From NCBI GenBank assembly GCA_023898465.1, contig CP060223.1, forward strand, positions 672,001 to 736,000: a DNA stretch of 64,000 bases. Reading direction: 5' to 3'. This DNA comes from Candidatus Nomurabacteria bacterium. Its GTDB lineage: Bacteria > Patescibacteriota > Patescibacteriia > HK-STAS-PATE-3. The position numbers were made by a program, and so were the translations under genes. The stretch's first letter is position 1. Each line of letters begins with the position of its first letter. Shown piece after piece: positions 4,492-59,162 of this stretch. The notes under the pieces were generated by a model, which saw only the letters and a list, made by a program, of their open reading frames with translations, had not been told where the DNA came from and searched no databases.

Positions 4492-6819
4492 TCAGTCTTT
4501 CGTCGCATCATTGATAATTTGATAGTGATTTGGTGCGATTTTTTCCATCATCTCAAATAATTCATTCACAATCTTTTTTGTCTCTGGGACGAGCGCTGGA
4601 TTAAAACCGGATCCAGTAATATGTGATTGATCATTTGTAAATTTGTATATGGCGTCTAACTTTTGTTCATCATACCCATTTTGTTTTAACTCCTCTATCT
4701 TTTTATATGATTTTTTTCCATTTGGAACACTGAACATTAAAAACGTATCCCAAACCTTCCTTGCTATATTAGGAATAGGATATGCCTTGGCGATAGAATC
4801 ATCTTGTTCATCGCGAAGATATTTAAGTAATTTAAAGAGATAGTGGTATTCACTTTCATATTCACAAAGCTCTTTATCCATTCTATCAATGTAGGCACAA
4901 CGAATGTTCGAGGGAAAATAATTTTTTATCATAAAGTACCCGGTATTATCTCTCCCGGCACCCCTCCGCCAATTGATCAAAAGTTTCAAGAAATCAAAAC
5001 TATGAGTAAAAATAAACACTTGCCCGCCGTCTTTTACTGCACCCTTCAAAAAACTAAAGGCTTGATAAAGAGAATTTGAATCGAGGCTAGATACAGGATC
5101 GTCAATGAGGATGATTCCATTTTGAAGATCAAAACTCTGATCTTCAAGATGCACCACAAAATATATAAAGGCAATAGCGGTCTTTTCACCTTCGCTTAAA
5201 TATTTTGCAGCAGAGTCATCGCGCATGATATTGTACCCCGAAACAACCTCTTTTTCATCACCATTCTCGCTAATAACCGTTTCGATGCGCGGAACAAATT
5301 TTAGCTCTCTGTGCCCCAAATAAGTTGCTATTTTTTCATTGATGACTTCACAGGCCTTATGTTTCGATGAGATTTTCGCTGTATTTTCTTCAATTCTTTT
5401 ATTTATCTCCTCAATTTCTTTTGTTAATGTGTCTATGTTTTTTGTTAGATTAGAAATATCTGATTCTATTTTTTTTATATCGTCAAAAATTGTACTCAGA
5501 TAGTGGAATTTTATTTTTTCCGCAGCCCTCTGTTTAACGGTATCAAAATCCGCAGTTCGTTTTTTGTGTTCATCAATAATGGCATTTACGCTATCAACAA
5601 CTTTATATAGACCGATACTGCTCAATTTTTTATCATGCTCTACCCTTTCGGTCGTCTTACTTTTCTTACTTTTAATTTTATCCGCAAGATTTGTAATATC
5701 GTTGACAAATTGTTGTTTAGCTAGTTCAAAATTAACTTTTTCTGTCTCTAGGTTTGTTTGTAGGTCTTTATAGAATCTCGTTTTCTCGGGAATTGTTATA
5801 TTTTGAATAACGGAGTAAAGCTTCCTTAATTTTTCAACAAGACTATCCAGGTCTTCTTTTAATTTTTTGTCTGCATTATTAAAATAAAGTGCCAATTGCT
5901 CTACTCTATCATTTGGAATATTTTGTAAACAGTATTCGCAAACATCTGAAGAATGTCTTTTGTGTAATTTTACCCCCTCTTCTACCCATTCTGAAATATC
6001 ATTATTTTCTGCAAGTCGATTAATAATCTCGGACTCAACTTTTTTGTTTAATACGTTTTCTGCCTCGGTATTAATGGAATTTACAATTTCAGAAATTTCG
6101 TAATTGTTTTGATCTATTTCGACTTTCGGAATAAATATTCTATCCAAAAATGGTAGAGATTCCTGCTTTAAAGAGATTAATATATTATTGAGCTCTACTT
6201 CTTCTAGCTCCACCTTCCTATTAATTTTAGAAAAATCACTTTCTGCCTGCGGCCTACGATAATCTCTTAATGCATTTCCTCCGATCGCAGCTCCTATGGT
6301 TTTTGCAATTTCGGTGAATTGACCATCGCGACTTGCTTTAAGCCGCTTATGGTCTTTTTTATAATCTGCCAATCTTGCAATTTTTCCTCTTTGCTTCGGA
6401 TCAGATGAATCGCCGTTGAGTAAAGTTCTATCTTTTTTAATTTGAACAGCGAGATCTTTATTTTCTTCACCGAGTAAAATTGAAATTGAATTTGCACGGC
6501 CTTCTATAAGCTCAATATTTCTTTCTATATAGTCTCTGTTGAAAACTCTGACTTTTGGAGGGAATGTGTCGTTTTGATCGTACCTATTTCCATTCTCGTC
6601 TTCAATTTCATACTCCAGATTTTCAATACTCACCCCGCTTAAAGCATCAAATAAACGGGAGAGTGTTGTTTTGCCGCTTCCATTCCAACCATACACTAAA
6701 TTAAGTTGCTTGAAATTTGGCAAGGTTGATCTAGATCGTATTCCTGAACCCCAGACATAATTAGAAAAAACAAGTCCGAGATTTTTTATTTTATTGATTC
6801 TTTGGATAGCATTACCCAT
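4492..6819 (-). CDS. RloC/PrrC-like ABC-type ATPase with Rad50-like CxxC zinc hook (putative anticodon nuclease / abortive-infection defence protein, AAA_13-like)
   Basis: 775 aa. Walker A LVYGWNGSGKTT near the N-terminus; about 450 aa of predicted coiled coil interrupted by CEYC (CxxC hook); ABC signature LSEGEK; Walker B/D-loop GIILIDDPVSSLD; H-loop FIFTHSFDF; about 170-aa C-terminal extra domain. The gene and its flanks (about 4270-7040) are markedly AT-rich (about 30-35% GC by eye) against about 50% neighbours. Confidence 0.6.
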   Translation of the reverse strand: MGNAIQRINKIKNLGLVFSNYVWGSGIRSRSTLPNFKQLNLVYGWNGSGKTTLSRLFDALSGVSIENLEYEIEDENGNRYDQNDTFPPKVRVFNRDYIERNIELIEGRANSISILLGEENKDLAVQIKKDRTLLNGDSSDPKQRGKIARLADYKKDHKRLKASRDGQFTEIAKTIGAAIGGNALRDYRRPQAESDFSKINRKVELEEVELNNILISLKQESLPFLDRIFIPKVEIDQNNYEISEIVNSINTEAENVLNKKVESEIINRLAENNDISEWVEEGVKLHKRHSSDVCEYCLQNIPNDRVEQLALYFNNADKKLKEDLDSLVEKLRKLYSVIQNITIPEKTRFYKDLQTNLETEKVNFELAKQQFVNDITNLADKIKSKKSKTTERVEHDKKLSSIGLYKVVDSVNAIIDEHKKRTADFDTVKQRAAEKIKFHYLSTIFDDIKKIESDISNLTKNIDTLTKEIEEINKRIEENTAKISSKHKACEVINEKIATYLGHRELKFVPRIETVISENGDEKEVVSGYNIMRDDSAAKYLSEGEKTAIAFIYFVVHLEDQSFDLQNGIILIDDPVSSLDSNSLYQAFSFLKGAVKDGGQVFIFTHSFDFLKLLINWRRGAGRDNTGYFMIKNYFPSNIRCAYIDRMDKELCEYESEYHYLFKLLKYLRDEQDDSIAKAYPIPNIARKVWDTFLMFSVPNGKKSYKKIEELKQNGYDEQKLDAIYKFTNDQSHITGSGFNPALVPETKKIVNELFEMMEKIAPNHYQIINDATKD

Positions 6820-38939: not shown

Positions 38940-39494
38940 TCACAGCGCATCGAAGCTGATCAGTCGACCATCAGGACCAAAAACCCAAAGTCGACTCAGC
39001 CGCTCTAATGTTTGACGGAAGTTTTCCCTGTACTGCTCCAGCGTCGCCCGAACGATTTCCTGGCAATCCTCACCCTGAAGATTCGGGTCTGACTTCAGGG
39101 CAATGATATCGTCCCGGTAGCTTATCGCCGCCTGACGAAGCGCTGCAGCAATCCGACCATTCTGCTCGTGCACAAACTCCCTTCTCAATTGGCCTATGTA
39201 GGCCGCAGCCTGCTGCTCATAGTACTCGATGATCGCCCTGGACACTGCTTCAGCAACACTCAAACGAGTGGCGTAGTGAAGCTTGATCAGCTCCAGTGCT
39301 CTGGAATGGATTTGCCGGCGAAGCCTCCAGTCAAAACCAAAGTGTCCGAGACCTCGACAACGCTCCCTGGCTTCAGCTACTACCGCGTCAACATCCAGAT
39401 CGTTCAGCCCACTCTCCAAGGCCTGCGGCGAGGCACGTACCAAAGCAGATGAGTCAGTTGAGATAAACTCCCAGTTATCCTCTTCTCTACCCAT
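38940..39494 (-). CDS. Hypothetical protein (third gene of a 3-gene operon)
   Basis: Start set at MGREEDNWEF (ATG 39494) with GGAGG SD overlapping the stop of the upstream gene; track ORF extends to 39581. No family recognised. Confidence 0.5.
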   Translation of the reverse strand: MGREEDNWEFISTDSSALVRASPQALESGLNDLDVDAVVAEARERCRGLGHFGFDWRLRRQIHSRALELIKLHYATRLSVAEAVSRAIIEYYEQQAAAYIGQLRREFVHEQNGRIAAALRQAAISYRDDIIALKSDPNLQGEDCQEIVRATLEQYRENFRQTLERLSRLWVFGPDGRLISFDAL

Positions 39495-39498
39495 AGGT

Positions 39499-39750
39499 CT
39501 AACCTCCTGGCAGAAGGAGCTGGCCTGCACCAAGTCTCCGTATCTGCTGATCATAGGATTGAAGCTGTCGTTCACGCTCACCAGATGCTAGACCCAATTT
39601 CGTCAGCTCAGCATCGAGCTTTCTTCGCTCCTCAATCAGGACTTCGGCAATTCGCTGCCGCGCTTCCTTCTGTATTCCCTCAACTTCGTCTCGGGTATGT
39701 TGTACGATTGTCCGAATGGACGCTAAGACCTCACTCTCTTCCACGGGCAC
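39499..39750 (-). CDS. Hypothetical small coiled-coil protein
   Basis: 83 aa, Glu/Arg-rich helix; tightly coupled to flanking genes (3-4-nt gaps). Confidence 0.45.
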   Translation of the reverse strand: MPVEESEVLASIRTIVQHTRDEVEGIQKEARQRIAEVLIEERRKLDAELTKLGLASGERERQLQSYDQQIRRLGAGQLLLPGG

Positions 39751-39753
39751 ACC

Positions 39754-40275
39754 TCATGCTCGATTAATGTCATCACGTGCCGTACCAAATGCATCTCGAT
39801 GGCGCCGCCGCTCTTCCTCAGACAAAGAGCCTTCCAAGCTGGCGAGATTCCGCCAGCCTCGCCGCTTTGCCTCAGCCTCACTCAGCTCCACTTCTCGAGC
39901 AGTATTGTTCATTGCTCCTAGGACTCGAATTCTACTTTCCTCAGTAGAGCGTGTGGCTGCCGTCCTTTGATCCATGCTATCTATCATAGCTTGCAACTTT
40001 GCAGAAGTTCGCAAAGAGTCAGCACGGCGCTTCTCAACTGCATTCTGAAACCACACGCGCTCTTCTTCTTCCCTCTTCTGTATCCGGCTTACGGCTCCAA
40101 CAAAAAGAAGGACGAGAATGATTGGCCAGAACTTTGCTACCAGAAACGCAAACAACAGAAACACGATGATTCCTATGACTGCCATAAGGCACACTCCCTG
40201 TGTCACGGTGTAATAACCAAAAGAAGAAAGGGCATGCGCCCCTTGCGTATTTTCAAGGTCCTTTCCGTTCTTCAC
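39754..40275 (-). CDS. Hypothetical membrane protein with cytoplasmic Arg/Glu-rich coiled coil
   Basis: 173 aa; two TM helices (MAVIGIIVFLLFAFLVAKFWPIILVLLFVGAV); the track start at 40275 is a GTG codon; internal ATG (M31) is the alternative. Confidence 0.5.
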   Translation of the reverse strand: MKNGKDLENTQGAHALSSFGYYTVTQGVCLMAVIGIIVFLLFAFLVAKFWPIILVLLFVGAVSRIQKREEEERVWFQNAVEKRRADSLRTSAKLQAMIDSMDQRTAATRSTEESRIRVLGAMNNTAREVELSEAEAKRRGWRNLASLEGSLSEEERRRHRDAFGTARDDINRA

Positions 40276-40407: not shown

Positions 40408-40959
40408 TCAGCCGAGCGTGGAGCTTCCGTGAAGCGTCTTCACGTCGATCTGCAGTGCCGCCGGGCCTCGAAAGTCACCGAGACGAAGTGACACTTCTTC
40501 TTGAACGTCGATCTGGTAGGAGCAGTCCATCTGGGTTTCATCACCCGCGTCCGGCAGGCGATCCCAGATGATGTACTGCGCCGTAGCATCCGGACCGGAT
40601 CGCGCAGTGACCTCCGGCACCGTGGTCCCATAGTGGCTGACGATGATGCTCTGAGTCCCCGGTTGTTCCGGCCGAGACGTCAGAACAGACTCGACCTGTA
40701 CCCACGGAGTCAGGGCGAAGTCGATCTGGACCTGATTGAAGCTGCTCTGATCCGAAGCCGGCAACAGAACAACCTCACCACCTGCGGAAGCGTAGAGACC
40801 GTCGGGAGCGATGGTGTTGTCGTCCATAGCGTACGTCGCCGCCATTTGAGACACACCCGGATCGTCCCCTCCGGCCGCGTAGATCGGCGGAGCGTGTGAA
40901 AGAGCGTAGCCGCACAGAACGATCAACGCGATCGCCCAGAGCGACAACTTCCTGAGCAT
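40408..40959 (-). CDS. Hypothetical secreted protein (signal peptide), GC-rich gene
   Basis: MLRKLSLWAIALIVLCGYALSHA signal peptide; GGAGG SD 7 nt upstream; no family recognised. Confidence 0.6.
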   Translation of the reverse strand: MLRKLSLWAIALIVLCGYALSHAPPIYAAGGDDPGVSQMAATYAMDDNTIAPDGLYASAGGEVVLLPASDQSSFNQVQIDFALTPWVQVESVLTSRPEQPGTQSIIVSHYGTTVPEVTARSGPDATAQYIIWDRLPDAGDETQMDCSYQIDVQEEVSLRLGDFRGPAALQIDVKTLHGSSTLG

Positions 40960-48495: not shown

Positions 48496-49056
48496 CTAGG
48501 TAGAAAGCGCACTACGAACACTTGCAAATAAGGAACTATAGTCAATTTCTTCGGGTTTAGTGGTGTCTATCTCAATCACACTTCCCTCAACTTGAAGCTG
48601 ATCAACTTGAGCATTTAAGAGTTCGACGGAAAATTCGTCGTAATTGGTCTGATCAACATGTCCCGGGTGTCGCTGTCCTGACTCAGCCCGATCTTTAAAG
48701 CGCTGGAGCAAAACCTTACCATCTGCTGTACAAATAATCTGGATAATTCGGGCGCCATAACGTTTCTGTAATTCTTGCATTTTAAGGTTATCATTTTCAG
48801 AACGAAAATTACTTTCAACAATACATGAGATACCTGCCTGAAGCATCTTCTCAAGCGTAAAGTACAGAATTGAATATGAAGCAATGCCCAACTTTCGTGA
48901 CCAGGCACGATCACTCCAACCTAAAGTATCAAATAACTGCTCCTTGATATCATCCCGAGCTATAAGAGGAAAATGAAATTCATCAACAATCTTTCGAGCT
49001 AAAGTTGTTTTTCCCGAGCCGGGCAAACCGGTAATGAGGATAAGAAGCGGCGACAT
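48496..49056 (-). CDS. P-loop NTPase / predicted kinase (AAA_33 / zeta-toxin-like fold)
   Basis: Start set at MSPLLILITGLPGSGKTT (ATG 49056); Walker A GLPGSGKT, Walker B-like …CIVESNF…; 186 aa. Confidence 0.6.
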   Translation of the reverse strand: MSPLLILITGLPGSGKTTLARKIVDEFHFPLIARDDIKEQLFDTLGWSDRAWSRKLGIASYSILYFTLEKMLQAGISCIVESNFRSENDNLKMQELQKRYGARIIQIICTADGKVLLQRFKDRAESGQRHPGHVDQTNYDEFSVELLNAQVDQLQVEGSVIEIDTTKPEEIDYSSLFASVRSALST

Positions 49057-49130
49057 AAAATCTCTAGTCTTGAATAGGAAGTATGGAAACTTGACTATAG
49101 CATTAATGCCTGACAAGAAAGAATGACTAC

Positions 49131-49159
49131 TTGACAAAATGTATAATATATGCTATACT
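49131..49159 (+). promoter_or_regulatory. Near-consensus sigma70 promoter with extended -10 (TTGACA-17-TGcTATACT)
   Basis: TTGACA 49131-49136; 17-nt AT-rich spacer; TG at 49151-52; TATACT 49154-49159; additional TTGAC-like repeats just upstream. Confidence 0.55.
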
Positions 49160-52382: not shown

Positions 52383-52534
52383 GTCAGGAATTCAATTCAG
52401 TACGCCTACTATAGAAGATTCAGGCCGGCTTCGCAAGGCCTAAGCATTGACAAAAAGCCCAAATTGACATACATTGCCTTGTTCATTTTCGCACCTTCCA
52501 TCCTAAGGCTCTCGAGTAGAAAGGAAGCGAACTC

Positions 52535-53047
52535 GTGACAGATGCACCTCATCCCCATTCAGAATCCCCAGATGATCCTCACTTCTGGATCAAGTTCTAC
52601 CCCCACCTCTCAGGCGCAGTCCAGTCTGTCTTGGAGCGAGTCTACCAACTCGGTCTGCCGCAACACCCAGGCATCATCCACGTTCTGTTCGTACACCGTG
52701 GTCAAGACCAGCCTCAGATCACCACGTTTCCAGGGCGGCGCCAAATCGATCTTCGGGTCGGCATGACCCTTCCGCCTTGTCGGGACGCTTTGAAGTCCGA
52801 CCCAGACAGGAAGTGGGCTACCAACATGTGGGACGGCGACCCCGAAGGCAAAATCGGTGCCGCAGCTCTCCGCATCACTCCGGCTGGCCACATCCTCGGT
52901 ATCGTAGGCGAGCATCTGATTCTTGAACACGCGCTGGCCATTCTCTACCTGGCGCTGGCTCGCAGCGGCTTGATCAGCGCTGACGAACTGACCAAGCTCG
53001 AAGTCGACGGCAACCTTACCTACATGGTCTTGCGCGCTCGTGACTAG
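52535..53047 (+). CDS. Hypothetical protein (paralog A of a tandem pair), GTG start
   Basis: 170 aa; GTG at 52535 with AAGGAAG SD; possible TTGACA-17-TACATT promoter at about 52447-52475; GC-rich. Confidence 0.5.
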   Translation: MTDAPHPHSESPDDPHFWIKFYPHLSGAVQSVLERVYQLGLPQHPGIIHVLFVHRGQDQPQITTFPGRRQIDLRVGMTLPPCRDALKSDPDRKWATNMWDGDPEGKIGAAALRITPAGHILGIVGEHLILEHALAILYLALARSGLISADELTKLEVDGNLTYMVLRARD

Positions 53048-53209
53048 CACAAATCCTCCCAACAAGACTCCTCATGCCCTGGGGAGTCTTTCTTTATCCT
53101 CGACGGACTTCGTATATGTAATAAATTGACACCTGCACTACAAGCGCTATACTGCGACCACACTTTTTGCACCTTCCTACAAACCGCGCCTGAAGAAACC
53201 AAGGAGTAC

Positions 53210-53719
53210 CGGATGAAATCTGAAGGAAGCGCTGGTCTTTGGCGGCAACTTACTCCGGAGCTGCACAAGGCTATCGCGAGTATTCACATCTATGCTGAGG
53301 ATCGTGATAGCAGCGGACCTAAGCCTGAAGCATGCCTTCTTGGACTGTCCATAGATGGCACCGTAGTGTACGCTCATGCCTGGCCACCCCGTGGTCCCAT
53401 CTCGCCGAACATGACTACGCACCTCAATACTCTGTGCGCCGTCCTGGCAAGGCGTCGCAGTAAAGGTTTCGCAATCGAAGCGGTTGACGACCGCATCGAT
53501 GCCTACACCGTGGCCGCTGCAGTGCGCATCGCTGGCACCAGCATGATCATCGGCTGCATCGGCAAGAACTTCTATCCCGAGGGTGGGCTGACTGTCCTCC
53601 TCACCGGAATGAAGAACGCGGGGATCATCGATGCGGAGACAGCAAGTCAAATCGCCACACAAGCGAAGTGCCGCTGGTACTACGAGATCAACGAGCTTCC
53701 AATCCCGCGAAGGATATAG
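53210..53719 (+). CDS. Hypothetical protein (paralog B of the tandem pair)
   Basis: Start at MKSEGSAGL (ATG 53210) with AAGGAG SD; the C-terminal about 90 aa align by eye to paralog A (AAALRITPAGHILGIVGEH ~ AAAVRIAGTSMIIGCIGKN; LAILYLALARSGLISADELTKL ~ LTVLLTGMKNAGIIDAETASQI). Confidence 0.5.
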   Translation, partial: RMKSEGSAGLWRQLTPELHKAIASIHIYAEDRDSSGPKPEACLLGLSIDGTVVYAHAWPPRGPISPNMTTHLNTLCAVLARRRSKGFAIEAVDDRIDAYTVAAAVRIAGTSMIIGCIGKNFYPEGGLTVLLTGMKNAGIIDAETASQIATQAKCRWYYEINELPIPRRI

Positions 53720-53760
53720 GAAGCACCTAAAGACTCCTCAACTCTGAGGGGTCTTTCTCT

Positions 53761-54900
53761 TTATTGCGCTCGGCGAATTTTTTCGTACACTGCAATTGTT
53801 CGCAGAGCTACTTTATCCCAACTGAAACGTCGCGCTTGCTCTAAACCTTGCTGACTTAAACGCTGGCGCAGATTATCGTCAAAGGCGAGTCGAGCTAAGC
53901 CATTGGCGATTGCATTCACTTCCTCGGGATCAACCAGATAGGCTGCCCCGCCGGTGATTTCTGGAAGCGAGGAAATATCGCTGGTCAAAACTGGAGTCCC
54001 CAACGCCATGGCCTCGATGACTGGCAAACCAAAACCTTCATAGAGTGAAGGAAACACAAAGGCTCGCGCGTGACGAATGAGCTCCAGTTTTTCATTCTTA
54101 CTAATGTAGCCAAGGTAATGCACATTGTCCTGAATTCCCTCTTGCTCGAGCGCGGCAAACACCTCGGCCGACTGCCAACCCTTTTTCCCAGCTAAGACAA
54201 GTGGAATGTTATGGAAGCGCACATCTTGGCGAAGGGCTTGTGCATAGGCACGAATGAGACGCGGCAAATTTTTTCGTGGCTCTAGGGTACCGACAAAGCA
54301 GAGGTAGTCGTCAGGCAGATTGAAACGTTCACGCGGATCAGGTTGTGGCTCCCCCGGATTAGGTCGGACATCAACTCCTTCATAAATGACACTGATCTTT
54401 TCACTTGGGACTTTAAAGAGCTCACGGAGATCCTCAGCCGTGCTCTCTGATACCGCAATAATTCGCTCAGCTCGAGTCAGTGATTTGGGAACCAGCAGCT
54501 TGGTAGAAAAAATTTGCCGCGGAAACCACGAGGGGTTTTTGTAAATCGCTAAGTCGTGAATAGTCACTACAGCTGGGCCGGTATACCCGAGTGGAATAAT
54601 ATTAGCCGGTGCGTGAAAAAGATCTAGGCGCTCCGTTTGCATTGCCCGAGCAGTTAAAACATGTGAATACGCAAAAGGCAAATAGCGACGACGCTCGGAA
54701 AATGGAAAATACTTTGGGGTCGCATTGTCGCGCCGGAAAGGACGTAAATCCTTCATGCTGGAGTCAAAAAACAGGACATACTCGTTCCGCTTGTCCTGCT
54801 GCAGCAAGTTCTTAATCAAAAAATAGGTGTAGTGGCCTACCCCGGCACCCTCGCCAACGCTTGGGTTAAGGATTGTGCGGCAGTCAATTCCGATGCGCAT
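53761..54900 (-). CDS. GT4-family glycosyltransferase (GT-B fold)
   Basis: 379 aa; C-terminal …EGFGLPVIEAMALGTPVLTSD… E-x7-E type motif. Confidence 0.85.
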   Translation of the reverse strand: MRIGIDCRTILNPSVGEGAGVGHYTYFLIKNLLQQDKRNEYVLFFDSSMKDLRPFRRDNATPKYFPFSERRRYLPFAYSHVLTARAMQTERLDLFHAPANIIPLGYTGPAVVTIHDLAIYKNPSWFPRQIFSTKLLVPKSLTRAERIIAVSESTAEDLRELFKVPSEKISVIYEGVDVRPNPGEPQPDPRERFNLPDDYLCFVGTLEPRKNLPRLIRAYAQALRQDVRFHNIPLVLAGKKGWQSAEVFAALEQEGIQDNVHYLGYISKNEKLELIRHARAFVFPSLYEGFGLPVIEAMALGTPVLTSDISSLPEITGGAAYLVDPEEVNAIANGLARLAFDDNLRQRLSQQGLEQARRFSWDKVALRTIAVYEKIRRAQ

Positions 54901-56760: not shown

Positions 56761-58041
56761 CTACGAAGTAATCACTGCACCAAGCTGCAGACAATCGGTC
56801 GCACCATGCACGCTGCGATCCTGCCGAGCCGTCACCACAATGTCGGCAACTTCACGACCAGCAAAATGCACTGTCACCCGGGTGAACCACTCAGCACTCT
56901 GGCAAGCACCCGTGTCAGTGAAGTACTCAAAGCGCCGTGCACGATTCTGCACTTCTCGCTGCAACACCGCCCGACCCCGCGCCTTGACCGCCTTTGCCAA
57001 AGCTGCCGAGAAACGCGCATCACTGCTGAAGATGGTTCCTTTCATGCCGCTGGAAATTGACTCCTTCAGCACGAAATTCCCATCAGCACACAAGGCCTGC
57101 CAATACTCCGGTCGCTTGCTTTTGTCGACCAAGTAGGTCGGCGGGATGAAAGCGCGGATGCACTGGAGCGCTTCCGAGGAAATGAAAGCATGCAACATTG
57201 CCTCAAGCTGAGGATCAGCTTCATCATTCCGCAAGATGGCCATGACCGCCTTTGAGCCCAGGAAGGGCTTTGGTGGGAAAAGGAAGTCGAGGCGTCCACA
57301 CTCATACCCTTCACACAAAACCTGATTGAGCGCTTGGTTTTTGTACATGAAGGGAAAATCGAGTAAGGGTGCCAGCGACAAAGCATCGAGCAAGTGCGAT
57401 GTGTCGCCCGTACAGACAGCATCCAACTCGCTCATGAGCTGAAGATCGATACCAAGTCCCTTCAATTCATCCTGCAGGATGAGGAACTCCGGCCGATAGA
57501 AACGCTCTTGGTCTGCATAGAGTAAGATGGCCTGGTTCGTGCCCTTCGCCCGGATTGCTTCAGCCACTTTGACTGCCGCGCCCGGGAAACTCGCGTGGCC
57601 ATTCTGTGAAAGACGTCGTGTACGGGCTGCCAAGGTTGAGTAGCCGAGTCCATGTTTGTTGTGACCATCGATCTCAGCTATCCAGAGTCGCCCACTCGGA
57701 TCTTCCATGAAATCCACCTTGCACACTGCTGGTACTCGACCAGGCTCGCGCAGTTGAATCTCGTGATAGGCCGGCGGCACCCCGGTCTGTGACACACGCT
57801 TCAACATCCCCCAAGTTTTACCATGCACCAACTTGGGTTGTGCCGATGTCGCGACCATGCGCCCGATCCCAGACATACAGTCATACAGAGCCGGCGCCAA
57901 GGCTCGCAGATCTTCGGCCTGTTGAGCAGTCAACTCCAGCACACTGGGCGACAACACGAAACCATGCTGCCGACGAGACCCGTTCGTCCAGATACCAGAA
58001 GCTTCTACTACCTCCAGCACCTCTTGATACGATGGAGACAT
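56761..58041 (-). CDS. Hypothetical enzyme, possibly circularly-permuted ATP-grasp / glutathionylspermidine-synthase-like
   Basis: Start at MSPSYQEVLEVV (ATG 58041) with AAGGAGGAG SD; 426 aa; weak resemblance only (…FVLKESISSGMKGTIF…). Confidence 0.35.
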   Translation of the reverse strand: MSPSYQEVLEVVEASGIWTNGSRRQHGFVLSPSVLELTAQQAEDLRALAPALYDCMSGIGRMVATSAQPKLVHGKTWGMLKRVSQTGVPPAYHEIQLREPGRVPAVCKVDFMEDPSGRLWIAEIDGHNKHGLGYSTLAARTRRLSQNGHASFPGAAVKVAEAIRAKGTNQAILLYADQERFYRPEFLILQDELKGLGIDLQLMSELDAVCTGDTSHLLDALSLAPLLDFPFMYKNQALNQVLCEGYECGRLDFLFPPKPFLGSKAVMAILRNDEADPQLEAMLHAFISSEALQCIRAFIPPTYLVDKSKRPEYWQALCADGNFVLKESISSGMKGTIFSSDARFSAALAKAVKARGRAVLQREVQNRARRFEYFTDTGACQSAEWFTRVTVHFAGREVADIVVTARQDRSVHGATDCLQLGAVITS

Positions 58042-58081
58042 CTTCTCCTCCTTTGCTTCGTAGCGAATTGTGAATGAACAC

Positions 58082-58516
58082 CTAGGGCAGAATTTCGAGT
58101 ATGTCCTGCAACCTAGAGACAGTGAAGGTGGGTTGTTCTTCGGCACTACGAGGAAGTTCAGAGGCGAACTTTCCTTGTCGCACCCACACTGTCTGCAGAC
58201 CGAGACGATTTCCTAGCGCGATTTCTTTGCGCACCCGATCACCAATCACGAAACTATTTCCTATGGCACACCCTTTCACGATGCGCTGAAGCTCGCGTTG
58301 ACTCTTCCTCCGCGAAACAACTATTTCTGAGAAAAAGGAAGCCAAACCCAGTGAACGAATAAGCTCAGTCCGAGTCGGGATAGCTCGACTGAAAAGCGCT
58401 AAAGTATAGCGACGCTGTAGTCTTGCAAGTACTTCAAGGGCACCAGGCACCAAGGCGCCTTGCGCGGGATCGTACAAAGTACGATTGAAATCAAAAACGA
58501 TAACGTGTTGAGACAT
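58082..58516 (-). CDS. HAD-superfamily hydrolase (small, capless)
   Basis: Motif I VIVFDFNRTLYD (DxD), motif IV GD…; 144 aa. Confidence 0.7.
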   Translation of the reverse strand: MSQHVIVFDFNRTLYDPAQGALVPGALEVLARLQRRYTLALFSRAIPTRTELIRSLGLASFFSEIVVSRRKSQRELQRIVKGCAIGNSFVIGDRVRKEIALGNRLGLQTVWVRQGKFASELPRSAEEQPTFTVSRLQDILEILP

Positions 58517-58695: not shown

Positions 58696-58736
58696 TAAAG
58701 GAAAAGACGGCTCACTGCTTAGGCAGAAAGCCGTCG
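58696..58736 (-). terminator. Rho-independent terminator overlapping the stop of 58719..59162
   Basis: Minus: GACGGCTTTCTGCC-TAAG-CAGTGAGCCGTC followed by TTTTCCTTT. Confidence 0.5.
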
Positions 58737-59162
58737 TTTGAAATCACTACGCCACTGATCCACTCGCCAGGTCCACTGCAAGTAAGGACCAAAGAGAAAG
58801 TAGCTCAGACGCTCAGTCACCAACCACGGCCCCCAATAGCAGAGCACATGGAGTGGGTGTGCATAGATTGCATAGCGCCGTAGAGTCTTCACGGCCCCCT
58901 CATCAAGCCAAAGCAAGATCCAAAGCGCTATCCAGCAAGGAAGAAAGAGATAGAAACAGCAAACTGTTTTCCACTCTATCAAGCCCTGAGCAACTTCAGC
59001 GAAGCTTTGCTTCTTCCCGGTGAGGAGATCAAGTAGCATTCCAAGCATCACCAACCACATCATCAGCGCGAGACTACCAAGGTACGCCCAAGCAAAGGGC
59101 TGACATCGTCTCATGCGACGTCGCCAGAGCAATGAGCGGATGCTCACCACTTTTCCAGACAT
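58719..59162 (-). CDS. Hypothetical membrane protein (Trp/Cys-rich, 3-4 TM)
   Basis: 147-aa ORF, strongly hydrophobic; no family recognised. Confidence 0.45.
   Translation of the reverse strand: MSGKVVSIRSLLWRRRMRRCQPFAWAYLGSLALMMWLVMLGMLLDLLTGKKQSFAEVAQGLIEWKTVCCFYLFLPCWIALWILLWLDEGAVKTLRRYAIYAHPLHVLCYWGPWLVTERLSYFLFGPYLQWTWRVDQWRSDFKRRLSA

What the first reader, a model, noticed from the sequence alone, without database searches (positions are those of the whole stretch)
52440..53719. Tandem paralogous pair of GC-rich unknown genes on the opposite strand to all neighbours
52535..53047 (GTG start) and 53210..53719 share a recognisably similar C-terminal about 90 residues and each has its own SD. 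A TTGACA-17-TACATT promoter-like element precedes the first. They are plus-strand and GC-rich in a minus-strand housekeeping neighbourhood (ileS, glycosyltransferase), suggesting an inserted two-gene module (e.g. duplicated effector/immunity or enzyme pair).
Basis: partly seen in the sequence, partly recalled or inferred. Interest (0 to 1): 0.5.

Follow-up and report, generated by a model that had tools for sequence, protein, structure and literature searches.

The report
Duplicated orphan gene cassette in Nomurabacteria
Two neighbouring genes for small proteins found only in one lineage arose when a whole promoter-gene-terminator unit was duplicated in a variable spot between two housekeeping genes of a Candidatus Nomurabacteria genome; they are real genes but ordinary, and their biochemical function is unknown.

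Summary
The similarity is significant over about 57 residues (BLASTP E=1e-6) and the full-length alignment is 23% identical.

The whole transcription unit was duplicated with a period of about 670 bp: promoter, a 14-nt leader motif in register, Shine-Dalgarno site, coding sequence and terminator hairpin.

Both are real genes. ORF B has dN/dS 0.25 against an 89%-identical relative. That relative conserves ORF A's protein, and its antisense frames carry stops. Public annotation truncates ORF A to 73 aa or calls its antisense strand.

No relatives turned up in 1.84 billion representative proteins, Pfam, NCBIfam, PADLOC, PHROGs, PDB, phages, plasmids or metagenome contigs.

In 86 related ileS loci, argS and ileS are often directly adjacent. 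Four loci carry a GT4 gene followed by a variable gap. None encodes a homolog, so this is a lineage-specific insertion.

Structure models are poor (pLDDT 43-49). Their fold matches are weak and disagree with each other. A GlcG-like lead failed profile tests.

There is no support for an effector/immunity pair. Interest is low to moderate.

The parts
52447..52475 (+). Promoter-like element of ORF A (TTGACA-17-TACATT)
   Evidence: 10/12 match. It aligns in register with the ORF B promoter. Function is inferred.
52486..52499 (+). Conserved leader motif TTTTCGCACCTTCC, copy A, starting 11 nt after the -10 hexamer
   Evidence: Within the 64-kb window it occurs, with no mismatch, only here and at 53164.
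52523..52527 (+). Shine-Dalgarno site GGAAG of ORF A, 7 nt before the GTG
   Evidence: Read directly.
52535..53047 (+). ORF A, 170 aa, GTG start; orphan protein, paralog of ORF B
   Evidence: The C-terminal 84 codons are conserved at protein level in L001 (51% identity), and all antisense frames there carry stops. The N-terminal extent is inferred from the paralog alignment and from the promoter/leader register. NCBI calls only the last 73 aa (P0003).
53064..53100 (+). Intrinsic terminator of ORF A (11-bp stem followed by a T-rich tail)
   Evidence: It is homologous to the ORF B terminator and to both terminators in L001.
53126..53153 (+). Promoter-like element of ORF B (TTGACA-16-TATACT)
   Evidence: 11/12 match. 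It is conserved in L001.
53164..53177 (+). Conserved leader motif TTTTTGCACCTTCC, copy B
   Evidence: It is identical in L001.
53201..53206 (+). Shine-Dalgarno site AAGGAG of ORF B, 6 nt before the ATG
   Evidence: Read directly.
53213..53719 (+). ORF B, 168 aa, ATG start; orphan protein (NCBI H6760_03590)
   Evidence: dN/dS is 0.245 against L001, and differences by codon position are 10/9/27.
53729..53765 (+). Intrinsic terminator of ORF B (12-bp stem followed by a T-rich tail), lying in the 41-bp gap to the convergent GT4 gene

Best explanation
What it is: a complete, self-contained transcription unit was duplicated in tandem with a period of about 666-678 bp. The unit consists of a sigma-70-like promoter, a leader of about 52 nt carrying a conserved 14-nt motif, a Shine-Dalgarno site, a coding sequence of about 170 codons, and an intrinsic terminator.

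The two copies have since diverged to 23% protein identity. They encode a family of small, soluble, probably alpha/beta proteins with no signal peptide and no membrane segment. The family is known only from this Candidatus Nomurabacteria lineage and from one relative at 89% DNA identity.

The pair sits head-on in a variable spot between the GT4 glycosyltransferase gene and ileS, inside an otherwise conserved argS-(GT4)-ileS arrangement. Its own promoters and terminators insulate it from those genes.

Shown: the paralogy, the duplication of the regulatory elements, coding on the plus strand, purifying selection on ORF B, absence from relatives, and absence from all searched protein, phage and plasmid collections.

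Inferred: the retained promoter and leader elements mean the two genes are regulated together. My best guess at the mechanism is that they are strain-variable accessory cytoplasmic proteins built on a two-layer alpha/beta sandwich, acting as a binding or regulatory module, possibly as a homo- or heterodimer of the paralogs. I give that mechanistic guess about 0.3. Their biochemical activity is not determined.
For: Paralogy.

Unit-level duplication:
- two promoters;
- a 14-nt leader motif that is unique in the window and in the same register in both copies;
- homologous terminator hairpins;
- repeat spacings of 665-678 nt.

Real genes:
- ORF B has dN/dS 0.245, with differences by codon position of 10/9/27; the binomial P for so few nonsynonymous changes is 3e-5.
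- ORF A's C-terminus is 51% identical at protein level in L001, where DNA identity is only about 65% and every antisense frame has stops.

Orphan status:
- The profile search of 1.84e9 representatives found only self-hits plus one artefact.
- Word-index searches found only P0001-P0003.
- There were no hits in Pfam, NCBIfam, PADLOC or PHROGs; NCBIfam gave only one row, far below its cutoff.
- There were no hits to PDB sequences, JGI metagenome contigs, viral contigs, or plasmids and phages by tblastn.

Insertion in a variable spot.

Composition.

Soluble alpha/beta prediction.
Against: - The structure models are of low confidence: pLDDT 48.6 and 42.7.
- The N-terminal 86 codons of ORF A have no cross-species support, because L001 ends there.
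- Promoters and terminators are consensus matches, not measured.
- The nearest ileS relatives available are only 50-65% identical, so the time of insertion is poorly bounded.
- Leader folding is no better than shuffled sequence, so there is no evidence that the shared motif acts at the RNA level.
Confidence: 0.7

Rival explanations
1. Conflict or defence-type accessory genes. In this reading the pair is a strain-variable module involved in phage, host or competitor interactions, for example immunity-like or anti-defence proteins, with ORF A as the fast-diverging partner.
For: - ORF A is far more diverged between the two lineages than its neighbours: 51% amino-acid identity, against 88% for ORF B and 97% for GT4. 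The step in DNA identity is sharp at about 53100-53150.
- The pair sits in a variable spot.
- Its GC content is atypical.
- The cassettes are self-contained, like phage morons.
Against: - No PADLOC, PHROGs or Pfam match.
- No phage or plasmid homolog.
- No toxin or effector gene next to the pair.
- dN/dS is below 1 for both genes.
Confidence: 0.2
2. Remote members of a profilin-like alpha/beta superfamily (GlcG/DUF336-like or roadblock/longin-like), acting as small-ligand-binding or regulatory dimers.
For: - The predicted order of secondary-structure elements is alpha-beta-beta-(beta)-alpha-beta-beta-(beta)-alpha-alpha in both models.
- hhalign places the conserved hairpin AAxRI..IlGivG on the GGvPv..iiGavG hairpin of GlcG.
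Against: - hhalign probability is 0.55% and 0.23%, which is no support.
- No Pfam hit at E <= 1.
- No small-GTPase partner lies within +/-10 kb.
Confidence: 0.15
3. Metal-dependent hydrolases of YbeY or minigluzincin type.
For: - ORF A has 10 histidines.
Against: - The model has pLDDT 42.7 and pTM 0.37.
- No HExxH or H-x3-H-x5-H motif is present. In the helix concerned only E131 is invariant among A, B, the L001 copy of A and P0002.
- ORF B's model does not give these matches.
Confidence: 0.05
4. The ORFs are not real plus-strand genes. Either the antisense ORFs are the genes (52610-53065 minus, which Logan's gene caller chose, and 53177-53662 minus), or the region is non-coding.
For: - Public gene calls place a 146-aa minus-strand gene over ORF A.
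- Long antisense ORFs exist on both genes.
- The ORF opposite ORF B stays open in L001.
Against: - In L001 all three antisense frames opposite ORF A contain stops, while the plus-strand frame is conserved as protein.
- ORF B's substitutions fall 10/9/27 by sense codon position but 24/7/8 in the antisense frame.
- dN/dS is 0.25.
- The Shine-Dalgarno sites, promoters and terminators are all on the plus strand.
Confidence: 0.03

Closest known systems
Moron-type cassettes of temperate phages: a gene with its own promoter and terminator inserted between unrelated genes (concept from my own knowledge of lambdoid phage genomics)
   Same: Each copy is a self-contained promoter-ORF-terminator unit of atypical GC content, inserted between genes that are adjacent in relatives.
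   Different: The unit is not in a prophage. There are no phage homologs by sequence or fold, and it is tandemly duplicated.
GlcG / DUF336 (Pfam PF03928) heme-binding-like proteins
   Same: Similar size. The predicted order of helices and hairpins is colinear. The conserved hairpin motif (AAxRI...IiGxiG against GGxPv..iiGavGvSG) is the region that hhalign aligns.
   Different: There is no statistical support: probability below 1% and no Pfam hit. The family's GVSG and Asp signature is absent.
Roadblock/LC7 and longin domains (MglB, LAMTOR, SRX, AP sigma)
Toxin-antitoxin or effector-immunity gene pairs
   Same: Two small adjacent genes in an accessory, compositionally atypical insertion.
   Different: The partners are paralogs of each other. 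They are transcribed separately, each with its own terminator. Neither matches any toxin, antitoxin, immunity or defence profile.

Membership tests
GlcG / DUF336 (PF03928) | Significant match to the family profile | tested here: not met
   Pfam scan at E <= 1 found nothing for either protein. hhalign of A1 against E. coli GlcG gave probability 0.55%. Against a 5-member GlcG alignment taken from PDB sequences it gave 0.23%.
GlcG / DUF336 (PF03928) | Fold match to solved DUF336 structures (2A2L, 4NKP, 3FPV, 6BWS) | tested here: inconclusive
Roadblock/LC7 - longin | Sequence profile match (PF03259 and relatives) | tested here: not met
   No Pfam family at E <= 1.
Roadblock/LC7 - longin | Alpha-beta-beta-alpha-beta-beta-beta sandwich with a significant structural match | tested here: inconclusive
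Roadblock/LC7 - longin | Neighbouring small Ras-like GTPase partner (typical of bacterial MglB-type systems) | tested here: not met
   The Pfam annotation of called genes within +/-10 kb shows no GTPase.
YbeY / zincin metallohydrolases | Conserved metal-binding His motif (H-x3-H-x5-H or HExxH) | tested here: not met
   In the alignment of A, B, P0002 and the L001 fragment, only E131 is invariant in the candidate helix. H127 and H132 are not conserved.
YbeY / zincin metallohydrolases | Significant fold match | tested here: inconclusive
Toxin-antitoxin / effector-immunity pair | Two distinct proteins co-transcribed as an operon | tested here: not met
   The proteins are paralogs. A terminator and a second promoter lie between them.
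Toxin-antitoxin / effector-immunity pair | Match to known toxin, immunity or defence families | tested here: not met
   Pfam, NCBIfam, PADLOC and PHROGs gave no hits, apart from one NCBIfam row far below its cutoff.
Phage moron / prophage cargo | Self-contained promoter-ORF-terminator cassette | tested here: met
   One search shows a promoter-like site upstream and a terminator-like hairpin downstream of each ORF. These are consensus matches, not measured.
Phage moron / prophage cargo | Location in a prophage, or homologs in phages | tested here: not met
   The neighbours are ileS, GT4, argS and recO. There are no phage homologs.

The most novel reading that the evidence does not exclude
The pair represents a previously unseen family, possibly with a new fold, of strain-variable small proteins in CPR bacteria. 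In this reading the genes are carried in insulated, co-regulated cassettes. One locus (ORF A) is exchanged or diversified between close lineages, while its paralog (ORF B) is kept or recently swept. That would suggest a heterodimeric recognition or conflict module specific to these episymbiotic bacteria. Relatives may be hidden from protein databases, because gene callers truncate ORF A or call its antisense strand.
Probability: 0.12. Interest if true: 0.55.

Novelty: new member of a known kind. Interest (0 to 1): 0.25.

Why it matters
The main value is practical.
- It corrects the annotation of one gene. ORF A is 170 aa on the plus strand, not a 73-aa fragment and not a 146-aa antisense ORF.
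- It shows how GC-rich orphan genes in CPR genomes can drop out of protein databases through wrong gene calls.
- It documents the GT4/argS-ileS junction as a variable insertion spot in this clade.

The duplication of a complete promoter-leader-gene-terminator unit is a tidy example of how accessory genes are insulated when they land head-on among housekeeping genes. Its regulatory elements have stayed more alike than the proteins.

If the family turned out to be a new binding or conflict module of episymbiotic CPR bacteria, it would be of moderate interest. Nothing here shows that.

Tried and rejected
1. The cadherin-repeat protein P0004 (E=2.9e-8) is rejected. Its score is the sum of 8 weak repeat matches, and the best single domain scores 11.9 bits with an i-Evalue of 1.5e4.
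2. GlcG/DUF336 homology was a lead from memory, based on the hairpin motif. hhalign against E. coli GlcG and against a 5-sequence family alignment gave probabilities below 1%. Rejected as unsupported.
4. Phage or plasmid origin: no hits in PHROGs, IMG/VR, INPHARED, PLSDB or BFVD.
5. A defence system: no PADLOC hit.
6. An RNA element in the leaders: no Rfam hit, and folding is no better than shuffled sequence, with z of +0.3 to +0.5.
7. The antisense ORFs as the real genes: rejected.
8. Further paralogs in the window: none in a six-frame hmmsearch.
9. Mobile-element hallmarks: there is no flanking tRNA (the only tRNA is at 62.6 kb), and no target-site-like flanking repeats.
10. The afdb50 fold library was not available.

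Full report
**Observation**

The two ORFs exist as described. ORF A runs 52535-53047 (+, GTG, 170 aa). ORF B is identical to NCBI protein H6760_03590 of a Candidatus Nomurabacteria MAG, on a 1.08-Mb contig.

BLASTP between the two proteins gives 25% identity over 55 C-terminal residues, E=1e-6. The local score of 70 compares with 28.7 +/- 4.5 in 2000 shuffles, and no shuffle reached it. hhalign of the two ortholog pairs gives E=2.5e-5 locally over 57 columns, and E=5.7e-6 globally over 146 columns at 23% identity. The N-terminal match (W..P.L..A..S) is colinear but not significant alone. The significant core is therefore about 57 residues rather than 90.

Both Shine-Dalgarno sites are present: GGAAG 7 nt before the GTG, and AAGGAG 6 nt before the ATG. 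The TTGACA-17-TACATT element is present at 52447-52475.

**Anatomy: a whole transcription unit was duplicated**

ORF B has its own, stronger promoter-like site, TTGACA-16-TATACT at 53126-53153. Each ORF is followed by an intrinsic-terminator-like hairpin, at 53064-53090 and at 53729-53756.

The non-coding parts are homologous and in register:
- The -35 and -10 hexamers align between the two copies.
- A 14-nt motif, TTTT(C/T)GCACCTTCC, starts 11 nt after the -10 hexamer in both copies (52486 and 53164). With no mismatch it occurs nowhere else in the 64-kb window.
- The terminator stems share AAGACTCCTCA...GGGGAGTCTTTCT.

Repeat spacings of 665-678 nt give the period of the duplication.

Within the coding sequences the two copies are only 40% identical at nucleotide level and 23% at protein level. 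The regulatory elements are therefore better preserved than the proteins. The leaders do not fold better than shuffled sequence and match no Rfam family. How the shared motif acts is open. It could be an operator in the DNA, or a sequence resembling the anti-Shine-Dalgarno tail of 16S rRNA. This remains unexplained.

**Are they genes, and on which strand?**

Public annotation disagrees with itself. NCBI calls only the last 73 aa of ORF A (H6760_03585, which is P0003). The gene caller used on the Logan assemblies calls a 146-aa ORF on the opposite strand.

A 1578-bp contig from another sample (L001) settles the question. It is about 90% identical in DNA from 53150 onward, across ORF B and GT4.
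- ORF B there is 88% identical at protein level, with dN/dS of 0.245. Differences fall 10/9/27 by codon position. The binomial P for so few nonsynonymous changes is 3e-5.
- The antisense ORF opposite ORF B stays open, but substitutions in its frame fall 24/7/8, which is not a coding pattern.
- Upstream, L001 carries the C-terminal 84 codons of an ORF A homolog. DNA identity is only about 65% and is not detected by blastn, yet the protein is 51% identical. All three antisense frames contain stops.
- That ORF also runs past the position of NCBI's internal Met start.

Plus-strand coding is therefore shown for both genes. The full 170-aa extent of ORF A is inferred from three things: its alignment with ORF B, the two proteins' near-equal length, and the shared promoter/leader register.

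**Uneven divergence**

At codons where the amino acid is the same in the window and in L001, the fraction carrying a synonymous change differs between neighbouring genes:

| Gene | Fraction with a synonymous change |
|---|---|
| ORF A | 0.49 +/- 0.08 |
| GT4 | 0.29 +/- 0.03 |
| ORF B | 0.14 +/- 0.03 |

The step in DNA identity is sharp, at about 53100-53150. Neighbouring genes therefore have different histories. ORF A may be an older or replaced allele. ORF B may have been exchanged more recently, or may be constrained at synonymous sites. This is inference from a single comparison.

**Distribution**

The family is an orphan.
- A profile of A, B and P0002 searched against 1.84 billion representative proteins returned only ORF B, the 73-aa ORF A fragment, and a 2018-aa cadherin-repeat protein.
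- The cadherin hit is an artefact of adding up eight weak repeat matches; its best domain scores 11.9 bits.
- Word-index searches gave only P0001-P0003.
- Pfam, PADLOC and PHROGs gave nothing, and NCBIfam gave only one row far below its cutoff.
- PDB sequences, JGI metagenome contigs, IMG/VR, and plasmid and phage tblastn also gave nothing.
- No third copy exists in the window.

**Synteny**

I collected 86 loci carrying an IleS that is 40-65% identical.
- In many, argS lies directly upstream of ileS in the same orientation, with a gap as small as 13 nt.
- In four (L012, L013, L020, L072) the order is argS-GT4-ileS, with a GT4-ileS gap of 0.3-5.6 kb. The gap holds unrelated cargo: a DUF167-like protein plus a secreted protein; a lipoprotein; or PitA, a PhoU-like protein, a transposase-like protein and a NUDIX protein.
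- tblastn found no ORF A or ORF B homolog in any locus; the best E-value was 0.33.

The pair is therefore a lineage-specific insertion at a variable junction. It is older than the split from L001.

Its GC content (0.587 and 0.564 against 0.485) and GC3 (0.66 and 0.61 against a mean of 0.51, sd 0.077) are moderately high. It lies on the strand opposite to about 20 kb of neighbours on either side. No tRNA, integrase or flanking repeats mark a mobile element.

**Function**

Both proteins are soluble. Their pI values are 6.2 and 8.4, and neither has a hydrophobic segment or a signal peptide.

The AlphaFold models are poor: pLDDT 48.6 with pTM 0.54 for ORF B, and pLDDT 42.7 with pTM 0.37 for ORF A. 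Both show an alpha-beta-beta-(beta)-alpha-beta-beta-(beta)-alpha-alpha order of elements.

- ORF A's best matches are YbeY at 5.5 and 5.2, and minigluzincins.
- The two lists disagree. No metal-binding motif is conserved; only E131 is invariant in the candidate helix.
- BFVD gave nothing.

A lead from memory was that the conserved hairpin AAxRI..IiGxiG resembles the GGxPv..iiGavGvSG hairpin of GlcG/DUF336. I tested it with hhalign against E. coli GlcG and against a five-member family alignment. The same region aligned, but at probabilities of 0.55% and 0.23%. That is no support.

**Verdict**

Shown: a tandemly duplicated, self-contained cassette of orphan genes, inserted head-on at a variable junction of housekeeping genes. 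Both copies are protein-coding, and ORF B is under purifying selection.

Inferred: the two genes are regulated together through the retained promoter and leader. Their products are accessory cytoplasmic alpha/beta proteins that may act as a dimeric binding or regulatory module. I give that guess about 0.3, against about 0.2 for a conflict-type role.

The effector/immunity idea is not supported. The finding is real but ordinary for a CPR genome rich in hypothetical proteins. Its most useful outputs are the annotation correction and the synteny result.

Noticed in passing
window 52535-53047 (both strands): Public gene calls for ORF A are wrong in two different ways. NCBI annotates only the last 73 aa (H6760_03585). 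The Logan gene caller annotates a 146-aa antisense ORF. GC-rich orphan genes like this one can therefore be invisible to searches of protein databases.
   Followed up: yes
window 52793-54390 against L001: Synonymous divergence from the 89%-identical relative differs sharply between adjacent genes: ORF A 0.49, GT4 0.29, ORF B 0.14 of identical-amino-acid codons changed. There is a step in DNA identity at about 53100-53150, which suggests recombination or allele replacement inside the module.
   Followed up: partly
window 52486-52499 and 53164-53177: The 14-nt leader motif TTTTNGCACCTTCC resembles the anti-Shine-Dalgarno tail of 16S rRNA and could pair with each gene's own Shine-Dalgarno site. 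However, the leaders fold no better than shuffled sequence, so the motif's role (DNA operator or RNA element) is unexplained.
   Followed up: partly
window 4492-6819 (-): A 775-aa ORF of very low GC (0.343; GC3 0.29) matches Pfam AAA_13 at full length (E=7e-118). This is an ABC-type ATPase family common in defence systems. It is a much stronger compositional outlier than the finding itself.
   Followed up: partly
window 48496-49137 (-): A low-GC (0.407) gene for a Zeta-toxin/AAA_33-like kinase lies between ileS and recO. It is another likely acquired gene in this housekeeping run.
   Followed up: no
window 40408-40959 (-): The most GC-rich ORF in the window (GC 0.605, GC3 0.71) encodes a 183-aa orphan protein with an N-terminal signal-peptide-like segment. 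It has no Pfam hit and is unrelated to ORF A and ORF B.
   Followed up: partly
window 56761-58146 (-), 58719-59162 (-), 38940-39581 (-), 39754-40275 (-): Several further ORFs of 147-461 aa have no Pfam match. The first of them is also GC-rich (0.55). Orphan genes are frequent in this genome.
   Followed up: no
L012 2400-8000; L013 6970-7950; L020 610-2070: In related CPR contigs the GT4-ileS gap holds different cargo in each case: PitA, a PhoU-like protein, a transposase-like protein and a NUDIX protein; a lipoprotein plus a small Cys-rich protein; or a DUF167-like protein plus a secreted protein. The junction is a recurrent insertion spot.
   Followed up: partly
L006, L007 (genome contigs): The two closest IleS matches among species representatives are labelled 'uncultured Gammaproteobacteria' MAGs. 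Their argS-ileS arrangement and their 51-53% IleS identity to this Nomurabacteria window suggest the taxonomic label may be wrong.
   Followed up: no
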